Source of the DNA: Naegleria gruberi
Taxonomy: Eukaryota
Length of the DNA stretch: 64,000 nucleotides
Direction: 5' to 3' (one strand)
Assembly: GCA_000004985.1 (NCBI GenBank)
Contig: GG738885.1
This document shows positions 8,901-50,543 of the stretch, piece by piece (position 1 is the first letter of the stretch; every line of letters starts with the position of its first letter). The notes under the pieces were generated by a model. The model was not told the origin of the DNA and did not search any database. It was given only the letters and a program-made list of their open reading frames with translations. The position numbers and the translations under genes are program-made.

Positions 8901-9482
8901 ATGACTAACAGAAAGGACCTCATCTTTAAACTTGCCAAAGGTTATTTCGGCAGAAGTAAAAATTGTTGGAGAACAACAAGAAATAGAGTGGAGCATGGTC
9001 TTGAACATGCCTACCGTGGAAGAAAGGAAAAGAAAAGAACAATGAGTAGTATTTGGATACAAAATGTTAAAGCTGCTACCGAACAACATGGAGTAAAATA
9101 TAGTCAATTTATGAATGGATTTGTTCTTAGTGGATGCCAAATTAATCGTAAAGTACTTGCCGAATTGGCCCAAACAGAACCTTTAACTATGCGTGCTTTA
9201 GTAGCCTTGTCTGTGCAAGCACGTAGAGAATTTGCTGTAGAATTCGGAAACAAGGATAACTCAGCTGGTGCTCTTTCGTATGAACTTGACTTCCCAGTGG
9301 AAGCTGAATTATCTTATGAAGGAGAAGATGCTGAAGTTACTCGTATAACGGAACATTTGTCCAAAGTTTTCTCTGACCTTGTTGCCAAGGAATATGAAGA
9401 AGATAAGATTTACCAACAAAAACTTGAACAAGAAATTAAGGATAAGAAGATTAAAGTCACCGGAGACCCAATTATTGTATAA
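8901..9482 (+). CDS. Mitochondrial-type ribosomal protein bL20 (MRPL20 homolog) with an acidic C-terminal extension
   Basis: The N-terminal ~115 aa (RKDLIFKLAKGYFGRSKNCWRTTRNRVEHGLEHAYRGRKEKKR...IWIQNVKAATEQHGVKYSQFMNGF...INRKVLAELA) align with bacterial or organellar L20 (KQAKGYYGARS...YRDRRQRKR.FR.LWI.RINAA....G..YS.F...L....I..DRK.LA..A). Confidence 0.7.
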   Translation: MTNRKDLIFKLAKGYFGRSKNCWRTTRNRVEHGLEHAYRGRKEKKRTMSSIWIQNVKAATEQHGVKYSQFMNGFVLSGCQINRKVLAELAQTEPLTMRALVALSVQARREFAVEFGNKDNSAGALSYELDFPVEAELSYEGEDAEVTRITEHLSKVFSDLVAKEYEEDKIYQQKLEQEIKDKKIKVTGDPIIV

Positions 9483-29788: not shown

Positions 29789-31268
29789 TTATTGATATTT
29801 AGCAAAAAGTAAACTCGAGTTTGTTCCGCCAAATCCAAACGAATTACATAAGGCAGCTCTCACATTAGTGTTGCATGATTGACCTTTAACAATTTGAATA
29901 TTTGATTTTTCTATACCTGTCAAATCATCATCCAGAGTTTCAAAATTAAGAGTTGGTGGAATAGAGTTATTGTAAATTGAAAGAACAGTTCCCACAGATT
30001 CTACTGCACCTGCTGCTCCAAGCATGTGTCCAAGAGATCCTTTCATGCTATTCACATATACAGTTTGTCCACTTTCTGCGAACAGGGATTGGATAGCTTG
30101 CAACTCTACTTTATCACCTGCTGGGGTGCTTGTTGCATGACAATTTACATGGTCAATATCATTCAAATTAATATCTACAATTGAATCATTCAAAGCATTC
30201 TTCATAGCTGTTATGGCTGCTCTACCATCTGGTGAAGGTGTAGTAGGGTGATAAGCATCAGCTGCTGTTCCATACCCAACAATTTCTGCGTAGATTCTTG
30301 CTCCTCTCTCTAAGGCGTGGTCCAATTCTTCCAAGACCAAACAACCTGCTCCTTCTGACATTACAAAACCATCTCTACTTTTATCAAATGGTCTACTCGA
30401 TGTTTGTGGATCTGTAATACCAGACAATGCTCTTGCTCTTGCAAATCCAACATAGAATATTGGATAGTAAGAATTTTCACATCCTCCAGCAAGCATAATT
30501 TTACCTTGACCATATTTGATAAATTGGAATGCCTCTCCAATGCTATGAGCTCCTGTAGCACATGCAGTTGAGCAACTAACCATTGGACCTTGTAAATCGT
30601 GTTGCATAGCAATATAACCAGCTGCCATATTGTTCAAAATACGTGGATAAAATACTGGGCTAACCTTTGTATGTTTCTGAATGATTTGCTTTCTAATGTT
30701 TTATATTACATTGGAAACTTACCAAGCTTTCAACCATTGTAAATGCTTCTCCAATTTCAGCTGCAGCTCCAAGAGAAGAGCCCACAGAAACACCAATACT
30801 ACTTCTATCTTTAATTGACTTGATATCCAATCCAGAATCGATAATAGCTTGATAAGCAGAAACCATACCAAATTGAATAAATTTTGATAATCTAGATTTT
30901 GTAATACTCTTATCTCTATTTGTTGATTCTGTAAATGCAAGACATTTTTCAATTGATTGATCCAACTCTGATTGATCGATAAATCCACCAATACGATTTG
31001 AAATCTTACTCCAAATATTTTGTTCATTCTCAGTCATATTTTCGATTGGTACTGTTCTAATACCACACTTTAAAGAATTTAATTCACTCCACATCTTTTC
31101 AACAGAATTTCCGAGTGGAGAAACAACACCCAAGCCTGTAACAACAACTCTTTTAGGCTTTGGAATTTCCTTCTTTACATTAAATGAATACTTTCTATAG
31201 TGTGTATTATGAGCATTGATAAGTTTAAATGATATTGATTTTCTATTCATCATTTTACTATTGAACAT
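29789..31268 (-). CDS. Mitochondrial-type 3-oxoacyl-[acyl-carrier-protein] synthase (KAS II / FabF-like, OXSM/CEM1 homolog); exons 31268-30723 and 30664-29789
   Basis: The N-terminus MFNSKMMNRKSISFKLINAHNTHYRKYSF has no acidic residues and looks like a presequence. The KAS N-domain follows (VVTGLGVVSPLG). After a 58-nt intron (GTAAGT...CAAAG), exon 2 continues VSPVFYPRILNNMAAGYIAMQHDLQGPMVSCSTACATGAHSIGEA (active-site Cys), ...HATSTPAGD..E (His), ...GHMLGAAG...NSFGFGGTN. Confidence 0.8.
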
Positions 31269-38899: not shown

Positions 38900-39403
38900 T
38901 TAGACATTTTCGAGTTCGACCAGCACACCTCCACAGTCCTTTGGATGTAAAAAGATAACAGGCTTTCCGTGAGCTCCAATTTTTGGTTTCTTATCAAGAG
39001 ATCTAATTCCTTTTTGTGTTACAACTTCCAATGCCTTATTGATATCTTCAACTTCAATACAAACATGATGAATACCACCAGATGGATTCTTTGTCAAAAA
39101 GTTTTCAATTGGTGACTTGTCTCCGAATGGATATAATAATTCAAATTTTGTATTTTCCAATTCAACAAAAACAACTGTAACACCATGTTCTGGCAATGTT
39201 TGTGGCTGACTGACGAGTTTAGCCTTTAAAATATCTCTGTAGAATGATGAAGCTTTTTCAAGATCCGGAACAGCAATTGCAACGTGGTTAAGTCTTCCTA
39301 ATTTTAATTCGTCGACAATTGAAGTAGAATATTGTCTACGAGTAACGGAAGTCATATTACGTCCGAATGATTTGAGAAGGTTGGATGCTGATTGTCTGAA
39401 CAT
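38900..39403 (-). CDS. MCEE: Methylmalonyl-CoA epimerase (glyoxalase/VOC fold), mitochondrial-type with presequence
   Basis: LGRLNHVAIAVPDLEKASSFYRDILKAKLVSQPQTLPEHGVTVVFVELENTKFELLYPFGDKSPIENFLTKNPSGGIHHVCIEVEDINKA...GAHGKPVIFLHPKDCGGVLVELE is near-collinear with human MCEE (LGRLNHVAIAVPDLEKAAAFYKNILGA..PLPEHGVSVVFVNLGNTKMELLHPLG..SPIAGFLQKNKAGGMHHICIEVDNI...GAHGKPVIFLHPKDCGGVLVELE). The N-terminal 30 aa are basic and hydroxylated with no acidic residues. Confidence 0.85.
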   Translation of the reverse strand: MFRQSASNLLKSFGRNMTSVTRRQYSTSIVDELKLGRLNHVAIAVPDLEKASSFYRDILKAKLVSQPQTLPEHGVTVVFVELENTKFELLYPFGDKSPIENFLTKNPSGGIHHVCIEVEDINKALEVVTQKGIRSLDKKPKIGAHGKPVIFLHPKDCGGVLVELENV

Positions 39404-42071: not shown

Positions 42072-45000
42072 ATGTTTTCTTGTTTCTTTCATGATATTTG
42101 CATCAAACTAGTTGTTGATCAACAAGATAATAGTTTGACTGAAGAAACATCATCTTCAATAATGGTTGTTGATTGTTTCTCTCTATTACAAGATCATTAT
42201 CGGAATGTTATTTCAAAACTACTAGAAAGAAATGAATATATTCATGTTCATCATTTAAATCAATTATTCGCTTTTGAACGATACAGTGTTAGAAAAATTA
42301 ATTCCTTCCTCTCTCCAACTGAACATCCATTCCTCGATAATGATTCAACTCTTGTTTTTATAAAGGTTTTGAAATTTAGGGGAGATTTATTGACATTTGC
42401 ATCGGAAAGAATTAAAAGTGATGAAACAATGGTTATGATGGCAATAAAGAATAGATTGTCATCATTGGAATGTATTGGTGAAAAATTGAAACAAGATAGA
42501 AAATTTGTAAAGAAGGCAATTAAATTGGCAAAACGTGTTGTCAATCCTTTACAATATTTTAAAGATTTTCAAGATGATGAAGAAATTTGCAAAATGGCAG
42601 TCAAGTGTAAAGGAAGTTCTTATGAGAGTGTATCTGATAGATTAAAGAATGATGAAACTATTATACAAGATGCACTTTCATCTGCTGGATCTAGTATTCA
42701 ACATGTTCCACATCATTTAATTAATAGAGAGCTAGTTTTGTTGGCACTTAAATCAGCTCCATTTTGTTTCCAATTCATTCCACCAGAATATAAGAATGAT
42801 AATGAATTGATATTAATTACTGCTAAAAATAATCCATATATATTGAAACAATTACCAAATCTGTTGAATGAAAGATCATTTGTATTGGAGTTGGTTAAAT
42901 TAAATGGAGTTTGTATTCAATTTTTATCAGAGGAATTAAAGAATGACAGAGAAATTGCTATAGAGGCCACAAAAGAAAAATTCAACTCAGGATTTAGGTT
43001 TTTAAGTGATGAATTTAGAAAAGAAAGAGAGTTGGCTTTGATGGCTGTAAAATCAGATTTTTATAATCTGAAGCACGTTTCCAATGAATTGCAACAAGAT
43101 AAGGAATTTGTGAGAATTTGTATTAAATCCAAGACAGATTTAACAAGTTACATGGCTAATGATACTTATGATTCAATTAGAATTAATGATAGGGAATTTT
43201 TATTTGAAATTATAGAAAAATTTTATAATTATTCAGAATATAAGTTGTATTTGAGTAGCGGTAAGGAGATTGTTGAGAGATTTTTAAAAGTGGATCCAAA
43301 TTGCTTTCAGTGTTTTGATTTACTTCATAATGAAAGAAGTATTGTAATGGAGCTGATACCACACAGTATTGATATTTTGAAACTTTCATCAGTGGAATTA
43401 AGGAATGATAGAGAAATTATTAGAAAGGCCATTTGTTTTCATGATGGAGCTTTGGAATTTGCATCAAATGTTTTGCAAAACGAAAGAGAAATTGTATTAG
43501 AGGCAATTTATTACAATTCAACAAATTACAAATATGCTTCCGAAGAATTGAGGAATGATAGAGAAATATTAGAATACGTTCTTGTAAGAAACGGTAATTT
43601 GATTGCCTATGCATCCGAAACTTTACGAAACGATAAGAATTTGGTAATGCTAGCCCTTAAAAATTCCACGCAAAATATCTCAAAATATATCGGATACAAA
43701 CTAAAGCGAGATAGAGAAGTAGTTTTAGAATGTGCTAAGAGATATCCATGCCTTGATGTAATTTCCTTAGATTTCAGATTTGATAGAGAAATAGTTTCAC
43801 AAGTTATTCAAAAATATGGAGAGGAATTTAAATTTGCTTGCGAATCTATTCGCAATGACAAGAATTTGGAATTAATTGCCCTTACTAATGGATTATCTCT
43901 GAAATATATCAAATCTCAACAAGATAGAGAACTAGTAATGTACTCTGTAAAATATTCTGGAGAAAATCTTCAATATGTAAATGAAGAATTCAAAAATGAT
44001 GAAGATATTACTTTAATAGCTATGGAAACATCCAATGGAAATGCGTTAGAATTTGCGAGTGAAAGATTTAAATCTGATAAGGATTTAATTAGGAAATACA
44101 TCAAAACAAATGAACATGTACTCAAATATGTTTCACAGAATTTACTTTCTGGTAGGAAGTTTATTAAGGAAATGTTATCAATTAATGGACTTGCATTACA
44201 ATTTCTTCCCAATAGGATGAGAAGAGACAGAGAGATTGTGTTGCACGCCATTAAATCAAATGGAGATGCCCTTCCATTTGCACTTGGGGGTTTAACTAAG
44301 GATTGCGAATTACGCACAATTGCATTTTCAAATGGATTGAAATTTAAAGCACGTTTTGGCTTCGATGATCTAAACAAGGAATTGATATTGGATATTGTAA
44401 AAACAAATCCAAAAATGCTGAATATAATTTTAGCTATGAAAAAAGAATTTAGGAACGATCCAGATATTATTCAAAGTGCTGTAAAAATAGATTTGGAATA
44501 TTTGGACTATTGTGCAACTTATGGAAAATTGAAAACGGATCGAAATTTTATTTTACAACTCGAAACAAATGAATTTAATTTGATGAAAATTCCATACAAA
44601 TTTAGAAGTGATAGAGAAATTGTTTTAAAGTCATTGAAAAGTTATGGAAAATCAATCATGTACATTTCTAGTGATGAATTGAAAAAGGAAATTTCACAAG
44701 ATCGAAATATTTTATTGGAATCCATTCAAAGTTGTGATGGTTTCATATTTTTATTTGCAAGTAATGAATTACAACAAGATGAAACATTTATTGAAGAATG
44801 TATTTCCAAAAATGGAATGGTTTTAAGATTTTTATCTGAAAAATATAGAAATAATATATCACTACTCATGAAAGCAGTTGAAAATAATGAAAATTCGTTG
44901 AAATTTGCTTCCAATAATTTATTAACAAATAAGGAATTGATATTACATGCTGTGAAACATTTTCCAAATTCTTTAAAATATGCCAGTTATGAATTGAGGG

Positions 45001-45089
45001 ACGATAAAGATATAGTGATGGAAGCTATTCGAATAGATCCTAAATCAATCAAGCATGCTTCTATTGAATTACAACAGACTTTACAATAA
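42072..45089 (+). CDS. Large tandem-repeat protein: about 25 copies of a ~36-aa alpha-helical repeat (L.FAS..L.ND.E.V..A.K.NG.AL.YAS), DUF4116-like
   Basis: 1005 aa with ATG at 42072. The unit recurs through the whole protein (..LKNDREIAIEATKEK / LRNDREIVLEAIYYNSTNYKYASEELRNDREILEYVLVRNGNLIAYASETLRNDKNLVMLALKNS ...). The DUF4116 assignment comes from memory of that family and needs an HMM check. Confidence 0.5.
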   Translation: MFSCFFHDICIKLVVDQQDNSLTEETSSSIMVVDCFSLLQDHYRNVISKLLERNEYIHVHHLNQLFAFERYSVRKINSFLSPTEHPFLDNDSTLVFIKVLKFRGDLLTFASERIKSDETMVMMAIKNRLSSLECIGEKLKQDRKFVKKAIKLAKRVVNPLQYFKDFQDDEEICKMAVKCKGSSYESVSDRLKNDETIIQDALSSAGSSIQHVPHHLINRELVLLALKSAPFCFQFIPPEYKNDNELILITAKNNPYILKQLPNLLNERSFVLELVKLNGVCIQFLSEELKNDREIAIEATKEKFNSGFRFLSDEFRKERELALMAVKSDFYNLKHVSNELQQDKEFVRICIKSKTDLTSYMANDTYDSIRINDREFLFEIIEKFYNYSEYKLYLSSGKEIVERFLKVDPNCFQCFDLLHNERSIVMELIPHSIDILKLSSVELRNDREIIRKAICFHDGALEFASNVLQNEREIVLEAIYYNSTNYKYASEELRNDREILEYVLVRNGNLIAYASETLRNDKNLVMLALKNSTQNISKYIGYKLKRDREVVLECAKRYPCLDVISLDFRFDREIVSQVIQKYGEEFKFACESIRNDKNLELIALTNGLSLKYIKSQQDRELVMYSVKYSGENLQYVNEEFKNDEDITLIAMETSNGNALEFASERFKSDKDLIRKYIKTNEHVLKYVSQNLLSGRKFIKEMLSINGLALQFLPNRMRRDREIVLHAIKSNGDALPFALGGLTKDCELRTIAFSNGLKFKARFGFDDLNKELILDIVKTNPKMLNIILAMKKEFRNDPDIIQSAVKIDLEYLDYCATYGKLKTDRNFILQLETNEFNLMKIPYKFRSDREIVLKSLKSYGKSIMYISSDELKKEISQDRNILLESIQSCDGFIFLFASNELQQDETFIEECISKNGMVLRFLSEKYRNNISLLMKAVENNENSLKFASNNLLTNKELILHAVKHFPNSLKYASYELRDDKDIVMEAIRIDPKSIKHASIELQQTLQ

Positions 45090-45562
45090 AATTGGCGCCA
45101 AAAATACCACAACAAAATAAACAATGAAAGTGAATGCATACACACAACTTAAAAAGAAGATCAAGCCTTCTTCTCAAGATGGATTAAATCTTCCGAATGA
45201 AATGATTAGTATTTCTGATGAATTCAATGCAAGAAAATACAAAAATAACTTGGAAATCGACTATTTTAGAATAAACAAGACTAAACTTTTCAACTGAGTT
45301 CATACAAGAAAACAAGATGTTACCCATTCAAATTTGTAATCTTTATTCCAAACTTCATTCGAATCTTTCAAGTCAACCCACTTAAACAGTTCAAAAAATA
45401 AACCACATTTTAAATAATTCCATTTTTAGACCTTAATCTCAGCACCTAAACAGATCGATCCAAAACAGTTAAAAAAAAAGCGAAGCAATTTTGTCGCTAT
45501 CTAGTTTTTCAAGCGAAAACAAAAACAACAACAACAACAATTTAAAATCAACACTCAATACA

Positions 45563-47964
45563 ATGAAGTTACCTCTGAGATTGGCTAATAAGAGCAAGAC
45601 TGCGCTCAAGAAGAGTTTCATTCCTAATAGCTTTGTGAATACAATGAAGAGAAATTATGCTTGTGGAGGAGGTGTTTGTGATGGAAGTGGAGGATGTGGA
45701 GGAAAAGGAGGACACCACCATCATAACCATCCTGAAGAAATTGCTACTTTAAATTCTAATCAACCAACCCATTCCCATGCTTTTGGTCAATATACATCAA
45801 ATGTTAACGATCCAAAGAATAGTGGTAGGTTTTATTCCGAAGTTGTTTTTTAATTATCATCATGATTGTAATCTATTAATCCCTTTCATTATCTCGTTTC
45901 ATTATCTTCATCATCTTGAAAATTATACAACATTACTTGATAATCATCTTATAATAATAACTCATAGATACTGTAAATATTTTCCTCAATGGTCTTCCTA
46001 TTCGTGTTCCAAAGAATTTGACAATCTTGGAAGCACAATTGTTTTACAACAAGTTTGTTGCTAAGAATATGGATATTATGGGAGAGAAATCCCAAGTTGA
46101 TATTCCAACATTGTGTTATCATCCACGTTTGAAGGAACACTCACCTGCTAACTGTAGAATTTGCCTCGTTGAAGAGGAAATTAACCCACTCGATGTAGAA
46201 CAACAAATGAGTTATGCCATTCGTCGTCCATATCCAAAACCAGAAGAACGTCTTACTAAACTTGTGCCATCATGCACTAATCATGTTAAGGAAGGAGGAT
46301 GTTATTGGACTCGTACTCAAACCACCCACGAAAATACCAGATCCATTCTTAAATTCCTTCTCTCTCACCACAATTTGGATTGTCCATCATGTTCTGCAAA
46401 CGGAATGTGTGAACTTCAAGATTTATTGGAAAAGTATCACATCTCAAAGAAGGATCTCCCACCTTCATTGCGTGACAACTTTACTAACACTTCATCAGAA
46501 GAAGTTTTAGTTTCCAACATTGGAACACCAGAGTATATGACAATTGGTGATATTCAAATTGATCCAGACAAATGTATTAGATGTACTCGTTGTATCAGAA
46601 CTTGTACTTTTATTCAAGAACGTGATGCCCTCTCCATGTCAGGACGTGGTCACAATGAATCAGTTCAACAATTGAACCTCGTTTTGAGTGAAGTCAGTAA
46701 TGGAACTGAAGAAAGATCTCCATGTATTTCATGTGGTCAATGCAGTCAAATTTGTCCAGTTGGTGCCATCTCCATTAAGGCTCAACTTGATGAAGTTTCC
46801 GAACTTTTATTACAAAAGAGTGTAATGAACGCTTTTGATAATAAGGAAAAGGATTATATTATGGTTGCATCAACTGCTCCAGCTGTTCGTGTTGCCATTT
46901 CTGAAGAATTTGGTAAGGAACCAGGTCACTATACTGCCTCTCAAATGGTTCAAGGTTTGAGAAAGCTTGGTTTTGACTATGTTTTCGATACTCTCTTCTC
47001 TGCTGACTTGACCATTATGGAAGAAGGTACTGAACTTATCAAGAGACTTACAAGTGAAACTCCAGGCCCATTCCCTATGTACACTTCATGCTGTCCTGGT
47101 TGGGTTAACTTGGTTGAAAGTGATTTCCCTGAAATTATTCCAAACGTCAGTTCTTGTAAATCACCACAACAAATGTTGGGATCTGTTATTAGAAATTACT
47201 GGACACCAAAGATGCAACAACACATTAAGGGTAAGAAGGTTATTCACGTTTCTATCATGCCTTGTACAGCTAAGAAGGGTGAAGCTCAAAGACCAGAAAT
47301 GGGTGTTCCAGATAAGGATGGTAACATTGTTCCAGATATTGACTATGTTTTGACCACTCGTGAATTGGGTAAACTTTTCAAGATGCATCAAGTCCATGAT
47401 TTGGAAACCAAGAGTGTTGGCAATGAAGTTGGAGATTATGACTCTCCAATTGCTGAAGGTACTGGTGCTGCTGTCATTTTCGGTGTTACTGGTGGTGTCA
47501 TGGAAGCTGCTTTGAGAACTGCTTATGAAATTCTTGAAAAGAAGCCATTGGAAAGATTAAACTTGCAAGAAGTTAGAGGTTTGGATGGTATTCGTTCTGC
47601 CACTATCAACATTGCAGGTGTGGATGTTAAGGTTGGTGTTGCTCACGGTTCTGGTAACTTGAAGAGGTTGGTAAATTATACCAAGACTTTGGATCCAAAG
47701 GATCAATTCCACTTTATTGAAATGATGGCCTGCCCAAGTGGTTGTGTAGGTGGTGGTGGTGAACCAAAGATTGTTGAAAAATTGGAACACCAAGATAGAG
47801 TCAAGAGAAGATTACAAGCCATCTACAAGTTGGACGAAGCTGCAATCACAAGAAAGAGTCACGACAATAGAGAAATCCAACAATTATACAACGAATATTA
47901 TAAGGAACCATGCGGTCATAAGGCTCACCACGAATTACACACTCACTACACCAACAAGAAATAA
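45563..47964 (+). CDS. Long-form (CpI-like, M3-type) [FeFe]-hydrogenase with an ~87-aa N-terminal extension (targeting-like presequence plus a Cys/Gly/His-rich segment); exons 45563-45824 and 45968-47964
   Basis: A 143-nt intron (donor GTAGGT at 45825, acceptor CTCATAG ending 45967) joins the two exons in frame; both are phase 1. Exon 2 begins with the 2Fe-2S ferredoxin-like domain (DTVNIFLNGLPIRVPKNLTILEA...VDIPTLCYH...CRIC), then the FS4C-like CPSCSANGMCELQ. Two 4Fe-4S motifs follow (CIRCTRCIRTC; CISCGQCSQICPVGAI). The H-cluster motifs are L1 TSCCPGW, L2 MPCTAKKGEAQRPEM and L3 MACPSGCVGGGGEP. Exon 1 reads MKLPLRLANKSKTALKKSFIPNSFVNTMKRNYA (no acidic residues), then CGGGVCDGSGGCGGKGGHHHHNH. 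The track ORF 46018 starts at a TTG inside exon 2. Confidence 0.85.
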
Positions 47965-48050: not shown

Positions 48051-50543
48051 TTATTGATTTGAAGCCTGGCTTCTTGTTATTGTAATTGTTGTCTCTGGTT
48101 GATCCGTCGACTGTGCTTCCACTTTTCTTGCAGAAGACAGTGAAGATTGTTGATTGTGAGCTGTGTTTCTCAAGAAATTCTTGATATCATTTTCATTAGC
48201 TCTTACCGACATTGTACTAAATCTTGAGGAGACATTGTCGTTTTTCAGACCAACAAATCCATGAGCACTTGTATGCTTTCTTAGATCCGCTGAATGAGTT
48301 CTTGTCTTTCTGACTTCTGTTTGAGCAGATTCTGGCTCGTCGTCTTGTTTCCAAACTTCTATTGATTCAGTTGCCTCACTTAATACACTTTCATTTGGTG
48401 GTGAAATTGAAATATCAATTGGAGCTCCAGAAATCTTTGGAGGAGCAAGTCTATCATCACGGAATTTACCATATATTGAACCATCTTTGGTAGATCTTGT
48501 AGAATAATTTGTGTGTGAAGATGTAGGTCTCGAACTTAATTGTCTTAATGATCGCTTTGTACTCAATGTACGATAAATTGGATTATTACTGTATAAATCC
48601 TCATCGTCAGAATCATCTGAAAAGTACTTATTTGGATAATCATCAAAAGTAAATCCATCATCTTCAAAATATTCTTCCTCTTCATCATCACCTTTTTTAC
48701 TTCTTGTTGTATATTCGTGAGGTGTTCTCGGTGTAATATTAACAGATACTTGTGAGAATGTACTCAAAGCTTCTACTAAATCTATTGTAATAAATGGATG
48801 TTGTAAAAGTTGTTTAGCAGTTGGACGTTTTGATGGATCACGTTGTAAACAGCTTCTAATAAAGTCTTTTGCTACTTGTGAAGAATTTGATGGAATTTCA
48901 ACAGAATCATCTTCTGTTGTCATGATATAGTGCATTAATTGAATGGGATGTACTGGTTGTTCAAATTTAGATAAAACATGAGACCAAGGAGGATTTTGAG
49001 AAAACATTTCACAAATTGTACAACCAAACGACCAAATATCAGCAGCTTGTGTATATGATCTATCTCTAATAACTTCAGGAGCAATATAATTTGGTGTACC
49101 TCTAATAATATTTGAATTAATAGTTTGAGTTGTTTCATCTCCCAGTGCTAAAGAGCTCAACTTTTTAGAGCATCCAAAATCTGTCAAGTAAACATTACTC
49201 CTTTCATCAACAAGAATATTACCACTCTTGATATCACAATGAACAATTCCATTTTCATGTAAATAGCTCAACCCTTCTAGAATTTGTTTTGAATACTTTC
49301 TAATTAAATTTTCAGGCAATGAAAATTCTAGTAATAAAGTTTCCATAGATCCACCTGGAATATAATCCAAAAATATATTCAAATGGTTATTAGCAACAAA
49401 ACTTCCCAAGTATCGTACAATGTGTGGATGATCAAATTGAGACATGAGTTCAACTTCTTCCATGATTTTCTTTACTTCTTCTCTATTTGTCTTTCCTTTG
49501 ATTTCAATTTCTTTAATTGCCATCATTTGTCCAGTTTCAGAATTTATACCTAAATAAACTTTACCATTTGCACCTGCACCAATCATATTACCTTTTATCC
49601 AAGTTTTAATTTTAGATACTCTCCTAGATGGGAATTTTTTAGTAGTTGTAAGTGGACTAGAAGGTAGACCATCATTTCTAAGTTTGTTTGCAGAATCTTC
49701 AATAATAAGTTTAGGTTTTTTATAAACATTTGCTGAAACAGAATTTTGAAAATTTAGAAATTTTTCAACAGAACTTTCAACAAAATGATCCAAATCTGTT
49801 TGAGTTCTTATTGATATTAATTCATTTTTATCCTCATCATCCGCATATTTAATATTAATTTTATCATGTAAATTATCACAAGCTAAAAAGTTATTATAAT
49901 GACTAGAAATAATTTCAAATAAACCATCCATAGACATTCCTAAAAATACAGATACAATAGTTGTTTCCTCTTTGTAAGAGAGTTTTACCTTTATCCTTTT
50001 TCCAGATAAAGAATTTGATGAATTTGATTTTGTTATACTTGATGTATTACTCTTTTTTGATGATCCTGATGATGAAGTTCTCTTCATTGTAGAAATAGAA
50101 GTATCAAAACTCCTAACAAGATTTTCTTGTGCTGAATGAATTTGATCATCACCACATTTTACAAGTTGAAATTTGTAGGCTGGCTTTTGCCAAAACCTAG
50201 CACGATTAATAAGTCTTAATTCTACATTTGAATTACCATTCTCCTCCGATATTGAAAATGTATTATTAAATTCTCCTTTTTGACCTCTCCCATATAGAAT
50301 TCCATCAGCTAGGAATATTTCTTGTCCTTGAGAAGATGTTACTTTAAATATAAATTGAAATTTTGAATTTCCTGCTGATTCTATTATTATACTATATTCA
50401 CCTGGTGATAACTGTTTGGGAATTTAATTAAAATCTTATTATGTTTTTTGCTTGAAGACACTTACCTCGTTTTGAATAATTCTTTCCTTCTCCGGGAGTG
50501 TATCTTCTTCTTGTAATTCAAATCGTGAAGATCCCTTTACCAT
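48051..50543 (-). CDS. STE-group MAP3K-like serine/threonine protein kinase with a PB1 domain and an N-terminal beta-rich domain; exons 50543-50466 and 50411-48051
   Basis: ATG is at 50543 (MVKGSSRFELQEEDTLPEKERIIQNE). A 54-nt intron (GTAAGT...AAACAG) follows. A ~120-aa domain comes next (..SIIIESAGNSKFQFIFKVTS..VELRLINRARFWQKPAYKFQLVKCGD). The PB1-like region is KRIKVKLSYKEETTIVSVFLGMSMDGLFEII...INIKYADDEDKNELISIRTQTDLD. A Ser-rich linker follows. The kinase has GAGANGKVYLG, AIKEI, HPHIVRYLGSF, HENGIVHCDIKSGNILV, DFGCSK and GTPNYIAPE. The C-terminal tail is low-complexity. Confidence 0.75.

What the first reader, a model, noticed from the sequence alone, without database searches (positions are those of the whole stretch)
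45491..47964. Long-form [FeFe]-hydrogenase with an organelle-presequence-like N-terminus and an inserted Cys/Gly/His-rich motif, split by an intron
All three H-cluster motifs are present (TSCCPGW, MPCTAKKGEAQRPEM, MACPSGCVGGGGEP). So is the full CpI-type accessory cluster set (2Fe-2S domain, FS4C and two 4Fe-4S). Exon 1 adds MKLPLRLANKSKTALKKSFIPNSFVNTMKRNYA, which is basic, hydroxylated, has no acidic residues and looks like a cleavable mitochondrial or hydrogenosomal presequence. This is followed by CGGGVCDGSGGCGGKGGHHHHNH, which looks like a metal-binding segment and is not part of any hydrogenase I know. The same window encodes presequence-bearing mitochondrial KAS and methylmalonyl-CoA epimerase, and a bacterial-type bL20. 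This suggests an organism with a translating mitochondrion that also makes H2. Where this hydrogenase is localised, and what the Cys/His-rich insert does, are open questions.
Basis: partly seen in the sequence, partly recalled or inferred. Interest (0 to 1): 0.65.

Follow-up and report, generated by a model that had tools for sequence, protein, structure and literature searches.

The report
Known Naegleria gruberi [FeFe]-hydrogenase gene
This is the already annotated and experimentally studied iron-only hydrogenase gene of the amoeba Naegleria gruberi; its mitochondrion-like N-terminus was tested in 2014 and the enzyme was found in the cytosol, so only the small conserved Cys/His motif in that N-terminus is still unexplained.

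Summary
The gene has two exons (45563-45824 and 45968-47964) and a 143-nt GT..AG phase-1 intron. It encodes a 752-aa CpI-type [FeFe]-hydrogenase with all H-cluster and accessory-cluster ligands. The product is 100% identical over its full length to XP_002674266.1, "iron hydrogenase [Naegleria gruberi strain NEG-M]".

That accession was studied by Tsaousis et al. 2014 (PMC4007538). They confirmed the long N-terminus by 5'-RACE and detected an 83.8-kDa protein, which is the full-length size. Protein and activity were found only in the cytosol. The N-terminal region did not import GFP into yeast mitochondria. HydE was also cytosolic, and the cells made H2 aerobically. HydE/F/G genes are present in the genome.

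I add three things. The extension is conserved in N. fowleri, N. lovaniensis, Willaertia magna and two uncultured relatives. Its invariant core is R-x-Y-A-C, three Cys in a Gly-rich stretch, and (Q/K)P(T/I)H..F..YT.N. The His run is not conserved. I found no homologue outside this gene, and AlphaFold2 models the extension as disordered, so its function remains unknown.

Novelty: already known. Interest: low.

The parts
45491..45562 (+). Leader upstream of the ATG.
   Evidence: The annotated protein XP_002674266.1 starts at MKLPL.
45563..45824 (+). Exon 1. It encodes the 87-aa N-terminal extension plus the first base of codon 88.
   Evidence: 262 nt. The spliced product is 100% identical to XP_002674266.1. 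5'-RACE confirmation is reported in PMC4007538.
45563..45658 (+). Residues 1-32, the presequence-like segment (8 K+R, 0 D+E), ending in R-N-Y|A, an R-3-type motif.
   Evidence: Chance of no acidic residue in 32 positions is about 0.014 at the window's background of 12.5%. The composition is conserved in 5 orthologues. Not imported into yeast mitochondria (PMC4007538).
45662..45730 (+). Residues 34-56, CGGGVCDGSGGCGGKGGHHHHNH. C34, C39, C45 and H56 are invariant in the 5-sequence alignment. The HHHH run is specific to N. gruberi.
45761..45802 (+). Residues 67-80, QPTHSHAFGQYTSN. This second conserved block of the extension has P68, T69, H70, F74, Y77, T78 and N80 invariant in alignment A2.
   Evidence: Also present, with Ile in place of T69 (QPIHDHAFGQYTSN), in P0127.
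45825..45967 (+). Intron: 143 nt, GT..AG, phase 1, 24% GC.
   Evidence: The uncultured relative L001 has an intron at the same position and phase. Read-through ORFs P0125 and P0127 imply the same for N. fowleri and another Naegleria.
45968..47964 (+). Exon 2. It encodes residues 88 (last two bases) to 752 plus the TAA stop.
45970..46320 (+). Residues 89-205, the plant-type [2Fe-2S] domain (C137, C150, C153, C190), with lineage-specific insertions at 115-129 and 158-180.
   Evidence: Pfam Fer2_4 is weak. The four Cys are invariant in the 50-sequence alignment.
46339..46449 (+). Residues 212-248, the His-ligated [4Fe-4S] (FS4C) domain, H222-x3-C226-x2-C229-x5-C235.
   Evidence: Pfam NADH-G_4Fe-4S_3, 1e-13..
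46552..46773 (+). Residues 283-356, the 2x[4Fe-4S] ferredoxin-like domain (CIRCTRCIRTC and CISCGQCSQIC).
   Evidence: Pfam Fer4 families..
46861..47757 (+). Residues 386-684, the H-cluster catalytic domain with motifs L1 (460), L2 (518) and L3 (672).
   Evidence: Pfam Fe_hyd_lg_C, 1e-83. TIGR02512 scores 446.9 against a cut-off of 405.95. E = 4e-98 to CpI. AlphaFold2 pLDDT is mostly above 90.
47794..47958 (+). Residues 697-751, the fused small-subunit-like C-terminal domain.
   Evidence: Pfam Fe_hyd_SSU, 4e-20.

Best explanation
This is the nuclear HydA gene of Naegleria gruberi NEG-M (XP_002674266.1/EFC41522.1). It encodes a monomeric group-A, M3 (CpI-like) [FeFe]-hydrogenase.

Mechanism, inferred from homology to CpI: electrons enter through the N-terminal [2Fe-2S]/FS4C clusters. 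They pass through two [4Fe-4S] clusters to the H-cluster, where protons are reduced to H2.

Shown in the literature: the enzyme is active, the cells evolve H2 under air, and the protein, its activity and the maturase HydE are cytosolic. The 87-aa extension appears to stay on the mature protein (83.8-kDa band) and does not act as a mitochondrial import signal in yeast.

Inferred here: the extension is not junk. Its acid-free basic head, an R-x-Y-A-C junction, three Cys in a Gly-rich stretch and a PTH..F..YT.N block have been kept across Naegleria and Willaertia. My best guess is that the Cys3/His part is a lineage-specific metal- or cluster-binding or partner-docking appendage next to the electron-entry end of the enzyme. 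The physiological electron donor is unknown, because no PFO gene has been found in the genome.
For: Identity: 100% identity and 100% coverage to XP_002674266.1.

Enzyme class: Pfam and NCBIfam group-A models pass their cut-offs. All cluster ligands are present and invariant in a 50-sequence alignment. E = 1e-98 to 1e-123 to solved CpI and HydA1 structures. The AlphaFold2 core is modelled confidently.

Function and location: PMC4007538 reports RACE confirmation, the 83.8-kDa band, immunofluorescence, fractionation, activity only in the cytosol, the yeast GFP assay, and about 6 nmol H2/min/10^7 cells. PMC9540462 reuses HydE as a cytosolic marker. In N. fowleri the hydrogenase, HydE and HydG fall together under iron starvation (PMC7326272). 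My MW calculation is 83.85 kDa for the full length.

Conservation of the extension.
Against: Localisation rests on one laboratory's work. It used heterologous antibodies, sonicated cells and a yeast import assay, and only aerobic trophozoites were examined. A 2026 paper states that localisation in Naegleria has "not yet been rigorously defined" (PMC13632651).

The acid-free basic N-terminus and the R-x-Y|A junction are conserved in every orthologue. They resemble the R-x-Y|S ends of the KAS and epimerase presequences in this same window. That is what a working presequence would look like.

A 3.7-kDa cleavage would be hard to see on a blot.

There is no direct evidence for metal binding by the extension. 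AlphaFold2 gives pLDDT below 50 for residues 1-83.
Confidence: 0.8

Rival explanations
1. The N-terminus is a real mitochondrial presequence that works in Naegleria. Import could be conditional (hypoxia, another life stage) or involve a minor pool, with MPP cleavage after R-N-Y. The organism would then have, at least sometimes, an H2-producing aerobic mitochondrion, as the genome paper predicted.
For: Residues 1-32 have 8 K+R and no D/E (p about 0.014). The same composition is kept in N. fowleri, N. lovaniensis, W. magna and the uncultured relative, although the length varies from 32 to 52 aa. The R-x-Y|A junction is conserved. It matches the R-x-Y|S junction in the KAS and epimerase N-termini of this window. 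The genome paper and the W. magna study both predicted transit peptides. A 2026 paper calls the localisation not rigorously defined.
Against: No hydrogenase protein or activity was found in the mitochondrial fraction, while the matrix marker GDH stayed there. Immunofluorescence did not overlap MitoTracker. The N-terminal 417 aa fused to GFP stayed in the yeast cytosol, while NgSdhB-GFP was imported. HydE was also cytosolic. The band is at full-length size (PMC4007538). The iron-starvation response groups the enzyme with cytosolic Fe proteins.
Confidence: 0.15
2. The extension is an evolutionary relic of a former presequence, or a disordered linker, with no present function. The Cys/Gly/His segment would be low-complexity sequence that binds nothing specific.
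For: AlphaFold2 pLDDT is below 50 for residues 1-83. There is no Pfam or PDB match. The His run is not conserved. The length is variable. Tsaousis et al. themselves suggest a lost MTS as one scenario.
Against: Fourteen positions, including three Cys and two His, are invariant in the 5-sequence alignment of the extension (N. gruberi, N. fowleri, N. lovaniensis, W. magna and the uncultured relative L001). The catalytic part of the N. gruberi enzyme is only 67-79% identical to the other four. The intron that separates the extension from the enzyme is also kept. A relic under no selection should have picked up acidic residues and lost the cysteines.
Confidence: 0.25
3. The gene encodes a Narf/Nar1-like hydrogenase homologue (a cytosolic Fe-S assembly factor) rather than a true H2-evolving enzyme.
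For: Cytosolic location. No PFO in the genome.
Against: All three H-cluster motifs, the small-subunit domain and the full accessory-cluster set are present. The protein passes the TIGR02512 group-A cut-off. Hydrogenase activity and H2 evolution have been measured, and the maturases are present.
Confidence: 0.01

Closest known systems
Naegleria gruberi NEG-M [FeFe]-hydrogenase XP_002674266.1 (Fritz-Laylin et al. 2010; Tsaousis et al. 2014, PMC4007538)
   Same: The same gene: 752 of 752 residues identical, and the same exon structure.
   Different: Nothing.
Clostridium pasteurianum CpI (PDB 1FEH/3C8Y/4XDC), the M3-type monomeric ferredoxin hydrogenase
   Same: Same domain order ([2Fe-2S], FS4C, 2x[4Fe-4S], H-domain, fused small-subunit tail) and the same ligands. 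E = 4e-98 over residues 183-749.
   Different: CpI has no N-terminal extension and lacks the insertions at 115-129, 158-180, 261-272, 321-327 and 373-382. The Naegleria protein is below the NCBIfam clostridial model cut-off (437 against 900).
HydA subunit of electron-bifurcating / NADH-dependent HydABC (PDB 8A6T, 7Q4V; NCBIfam NF040763 'group A6')
   Same: Best-scoring solved structures and best NCBIfam model (613.6 bits). The nearest bacterial homologues are Thermosipho and other Thermotogota 'A6' enzymes at 42-43% identity.
   Different: The score is below the family cut-off (765). No HydB/HydC partner is known for Naegleria. The eukaryotic enzyme has the extra extension.
Hydrogenosomal/mitochondrial HydA of Neocallimastix, Piromyces, Anaeramoeba and Acanthamoeba
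   Same: M3-type eukaryotic enzymes, 40-42% identical for the first three. They carry short N-terminal targeting peptides, 24-33 aa in the Neocallimastix/Piromyces-type (P0041, P0055, P0093) and Anaeramoeba (P0026, P0042, P0060) sequences.
   Different: In that alignment these enzymes go straight from presequence to the 2Fe-2S domain. In the literature they are organellar. The Naegleria/Willaertia enzymes carry an additional roughly 55-aa Cys/His-bearing segment, and the N. gruberi enzyme is reported to be cytosolic.

Membership tests
[FeFe]-hydrogenase, group A (TIGR02512; Pfam PF02906 + PF02256) | H-cluster motifs L1 (TSCCPxW), L2 (MPCxxKxxE) and L3 (ExMACxxGCxxGGGxP) | tested here: met
   Residues 460, 518 and 672. 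The Cys are invariant in alignment A3.
[FeFe]-hydrogenase, group A (TIGR02512; Pfam PF02906 + PF02256) | Profile scores above the curated cut-offs | tested here: met
   PF02906 scores 281 bits against 22.1, and PF02256 scores 72 against 24. TIGR02512 scores 446.9 against 405.95.
[FeFe]-hydrogenase, group A (TIGR02512; Pfam PF02906 + PF02256) | H2-evolving or H2-oxidising activity | not testable with these tools
   The literature reports methyl-viologen-linked activity and H2 production by N. gruberi cells (PMC4007538).
[FeFe]-hydrogenase, group A (TIGR02512; Pfam PF02906 + PF02256) | HydE/HydF/HydG maturases encoded in the same genome | not testable with these tools
   I recognised none among the window's long ORFs, but I did not scan them all systematically. 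The literature reports all three in the N. gruberi genome, with HydE = XP_002671091.1.
M3 / CpI-type accessory-cluster architecture | Four-Cys [2Fe-2S] site, H-x3-C-x2-C-x5-C FS4C site, and two CxxCxxCxxxC [4Fe-4S] sites | tested here: met
   C137/C150/C153/C190, H222/C226/C229/C235, and motifs at 290 and 340. Pfam NADH-G_4Fe-4S_3 and Fer4 domains.
NADH-dependent [FeFe]-hydrogenase 'group A6' (NF040763) | Score above the family cut-off | tested here: not met
   613.6 bits, below the cut-off of 765. It is the closest model, but the protein is not a member by NCBI's criterion.
Cleavable mitochondrial matrix presequence | Basic, hydroxylated, acid-free N-terminus with amphipathic potential and an R-2/R-3 cleavage motif | tested here: met
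   8 K+R, 0 D/E and 5 S/T in 32 aa, with maximum muH(11) = 0.62. The R-N-Y|A junction is conserved in the orthologues. TargetP and MitoFates were not available.
Cleavable mitochondrial matrix presequence | Directs import into mitochondria and is removed | not testable with these tools
   The literature reports the opposite: no import in yeast, cytosolic location in Naegleria, and a band at the uncleaved size (PMC4007538).
Known metal-binding or Fe-S domain, for the Cys/Gly/His segment | A match to any Pfam family or solved structure | tested here: not met
   Pfam gave nothing for the extension at E <= 10, apart from one spurious hit at 0.017. The best PDB profile hit had E = 1.4. AlphaFold2 pLDDT is below 50.

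The most novel reading that the evidence does not exclude
The conserved part of the extension (Y-A-C-x4-5-C-x2-5-C, then NH, then (Q/K)P(T/I)HxHxF(G/S)xYT(S/T)N) may be a functional module restricted to the Naegleria/Willaertia lineage. It could be an extra 3Cys+His metal or Fe-S site, or a docking or O2-protective element, at the electron-entry end of a hydrogenase that works in an aerobic cytosol. Alternatively, the conserved basic head plus the R-x-Y|A site could mediate conditional mitochondrial import that was missed in aerobic trophozoites. As far as I could find in the searchable literature, neither idea has been described.
Probability: 0.25. Interest if true: 0.5.

Novelty: already known. 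Interest (0 to 1): 0.15.

Why it matters
The gene was once important because it seemed to show a mitochondrion combining aerobic respiration with H2 production, in support of the hydrogen hypothesis. That question was tested in 2014 and answered with a cytosolic location. Acanthamoeba now fills the role of an aerobic mitochondrion with HydA (PMC13632651).

Two narrower problems remain. First, why do aerobic heteroloboseans keep an active, maturase-dependent hydrogenase with no known electron donor? Second, why has its N-terminal extension, including a Cys3/His motif and a presequence-like head, been conserved if it is not used for import? An answer would be of moderate interest to specialists in protist metabolism and hydrogenases.

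Tried and rejected
- The look-up of encoding contigs for the N. gruberi protein returned nothing. I therefore established identity through the exact-sequence cluster look-up instead.
- The supplementary figures of PMC4007538 (N-terminal alignments) are not held.
- Profile search of the extension against 5.8 billion proteins returned only exon-1 read-through fragments of the same gene from N. fowleri, the uncultured relative and another Naegleria.
- Exhaustive phmmer of the 87 aa against 1.84 billion representatives returned only P0127. My calibration shows that even the N. fowleri orthologue reaches only E of about 1e-3 at that database size. This negative result therefore excludes close relatives only.
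- Pfam and PDB searches with the extension gave nothing.
- AlphaFold2 with a 50-sequence alignment left the extension unmodelled, with pLDDT below 50, so I did not run a fold search.
- I considered a PTS2 peroxisomal signal and a Mia40-type twin-Cys motif by eye and rejected both, because the spacing does not fit.
- I considered an alternative start at Met28 and rejected it, because that Met is absent in N. fowleri, N. lovaniensis and W. magna.
- I considered and rejected a Narf-like identity.
Full report
OBSERVATION. The region reads as the first-stage reader described. The ATG is at 45563. Exon 1 (45563-45824, 262 nt) joins exon 2 (45968-47964) across a 143-nt GT..AG intron. The intron is in phase 1 and has 24% GC, against 39% for the coding sequence. 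The junction codon is G|AT (Asp88). The spliced ORF is 752 aa. Pfam finds Fe_hyd_lg_C (1e-83), Fe_hyd_SSU (4e-20), NADH-G_4Fe-4S_3 (1e-13), several Fer4 models and a weak Fer2_4. All ligand motifs are present and invariant in a 50-sequence alignment:
- L1 TSCCPGW at residue 460, L2 MPCTAKKGE at 518, L3 EMMACPSGCVGGGGEP at 672
- [2Fe-2S] ligands C137, C150, C153 and C190
- FS4C ligands H222, C226, C229 and C235
- two CxxCxxCxxxC motifs, at 290 and 340

IDENTITY. The spliced product is 100% identical over 100% of its length to a 752-aa protein named "iron hydrogenase [Naegleria gruberi]". The exact-sequence look-up gives EFC41522.1 / XP_002674266.1, strain NEG-M, on a 362,555-bp contig. The window is therefore N. 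gruberi nuclear DNA, and the gene model, intron included, is the public annotation.
- bL20 at 8901-9482 (+)
- a glyoxalase-fold protein at 38900-39403 (-), compatible with methylmalonyl-CoA epimerase
- a two-exon beta-ketoacyl synthase at 29789-31268 (-)
The immediate flanks are an 18-repeat DUF4116 protein (42072-45089 +) and a PB1-domain protein kinase (48051-50087 -).

WHAT IS ALREADY KNOWN. Tsaousis et al. 2014 (PMC4007538) worked on this same accession. [quoted passage not shown] Their results were:
- 5'-RACE clones matched the predicted coding region 100%.
- The antibody detected a protein of the expected 83.8 kDa.
- Immunofluorescence, cell fractionation and enzyme assays placed both protein and activity exclusively in the cytosol. 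Activity was 0.000 in the mitochondrial fraction, while the matrix marker GDH stayed there.
- HydE was also cytosolic.
- The 5' 1,251 bp fused to GFP stayed in the yeast cytosol, while NgSdhB-GFP was imported.
- Aerobically grown cells produced about 6 nmol H2/min/10^7 cells.
- The genome encodes HydE, HydF and HydG but no PFO.

Later papers treat the cytosolic location as established (PMC9540462; PMC7326272). In N. fowleri the hydrogenase, HydE and HydG fall together under iron starvation, and the enzyme's function is stated to be unknown. So is a direct test of the main interpretation, and it came out against it.

WHAT I COULD ADD: THE EXTENSION.

(a) Size. The calculated mass is 83.85 kDa for the full-length protein and 80.1 kDa if cut after R-N-Y. 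The published 83.8-kDa figure is the uncleaved size. A 3.7-kDa difference is hard to resolve on a blot.

(b) Conservation. Orthologues with the extension are N. fowleri (P0002), N. lovaniensis (P0121) and Willaertia magna (P0004). There is also an uncultured relative on metagenome contig L001, whose exon 1 I found upstream of the called gene, and a further Naegleria fragment, P0127. In the five-sequence alignment of full extensions (P0127 was not included) the invariant positions are A33, C34, G36, G37, C39, G43, C45, H56, P68, T69, H70, F74, Y77, T78 and N80. These form a Y-A-C...C...C block in a Gly-rich context and a (Q/K)PTHxHxF(G/S)xYT(S/T)N block. P0127 keeps both blocks but has Ile at the T69 position. 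The HHHHNH run is specific to N. gruberi. P0127 has a different His-rich stretch, and the others have none.

(c) The presequence-like head. It varies in length (32-52 aa) but keeps its composition everywhere: 8-9 K+R and 0-1 D+E. The chance of that is about 0.01 per sequence at the window's 12.5% acidic background. It always ends R-x-Y (R-R-Y in Willaertia) just before the first conserved Cys. The KAS and epimerase N-termini in this window end R-K-Y|S and R-Q-Y|S.

(d) The intron. In L001 an intron separates the extension from the enzyme at the same codon and in the same phase (44 nt, G|AA). Read-through ORFs imply the same in N. fowleri and in P0127.

(e) Distribution. None of 46 other group-A hydrogenases in the alignment has this segment. 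The recognisable organellar enzymes (Neocallimastix- and Piromyces-type, Anaeramoeba) go straight from a 24-33-aa presequence to the 2Fe-2S domain. A profile search of 5.8 billion proteins and an exhaustive phmmer of 1.84 billion representatives found only fragments of the same gene. Calibration shows that sensitivity for this short, low-complexity query is poor.

(f) Structure and families. There is no Pfam or PDB relative. AlphaFold2 leaves residues 1-83 at pLDDT below 50, while the core is mostly above 90.

CLASSIFICATION. The protein passes the NCBIfam group-A subfamily cut-off (TIGR02512). It is closest to the "group A6 NADH-dependent" model, but below that model's cut-off and below the clostridial ferredoxin-hydrogenase model's cut-off. 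The best solved relatives are HydA1 of bifurcating HydABC complexes and CpI. Relative to these, the heterolobosean enzymes carry insertions at 115-129, 158-180 (inside the 2Fe-2S domain), 261-272, 321-327 and 373-382.

INTERPRETATION. Identity and enzyme class are certain. The mechanism is electron entry at the N-terminal clusters, relay to the H-cluster, and proton reduction. It is inferred from homology and supported by measured activity.

On location, the experimental evidence for the cytosol outweighs the in-silico signal, and I follow it. I do note a real tension. The composition and the R-x-Y|A junction are conserved in every orthologue, including Willaertia at 67% overall identity. That is more than a decaying relic should show. 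I therefore keep conditional or minor import as a rival at about 0.15.

For the Cys3/His block, the conservation argues for function. Its position next to the electron-entry domain suggests a metal or cluster site or a partner-docking site. There is no direct evidence for this, and a non-functional reading stays at about 0.25.

VERDICT. The finding is already known. The only new item is the cross-species definition of the conserved core of the extension, which is a modest lead.

Noticed in passing
P0002 (N. fowleri XP_044563630, 1012 aa) compared with P0121, P0123 and P0124: The N. fowleri gene model looks like a merge of the hydrogenase (which ends ...HTHYHSRK) with a separate 256-aa downstream ORF. 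The N. lovaniensis orthologue is 763 aa, and ORF calls on a Logan contig keep the two pieces apart.
   Followed up: partly
L001:42-366 (ENA metagenome contig ERZ27315067 k141_791943): An uncultured heterolobosean relative (79% identical enzyme) has the same exon-1 extension and a 44-nt intron at the same codon and phase. The prokaryote-style gene caller missed both.
   Followed up: yes
window 46048-46092, 46177-46245, 46486-46521, 46666-46686, 46822-46851: Heterolobosean-specific insertions in the enzyme, relative to 46 other group-A hydrogenases, lie at residues 115-129, 158-180, 261-272, 321-327 and 373-382. The 23-aa one sits inside the [2Fe-2S] domain, between the CxxC pair and the fourth Cys. 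Two of them (261-272 and 321-327) overlap the low-confidence AlphaFold2 segments at 260-274 and 325-335.
   Followed up: partly
window 42072-45089 (+): A 1005-aa intronless ORF made of 18 DUF4116 repeats lies directly upstream of the hydrogenase (Pfam E = 2e-186).
   Followed up: no
window 48051-50087 (-): A PB1-domain Ser/Thr protein kinase converges on the hydrogenase 3' end, with only 86 nt between the two stop codons.
   Followed up: no
window 29789-31268 (-) and 38900-39403 (-): The KAS (two exons) and the glyoxalase-fold epimerase-like protein both have basic, acid-free N-termini ending R-x-Y|S. This is the same junction motif as R-N-Y|A in the hydrogenase.
   Followed up: partly
window 45644-45646 (Met28): A second in-frame ATG lies just before the conserved R-N-Y-A-C. 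Starting there would skip the presequence-like head. This Met is absent in N. fowleri, N. lovaniensis and W. magna, so a conserved dual-start mechanism is unlikely.
   Followed up: partly
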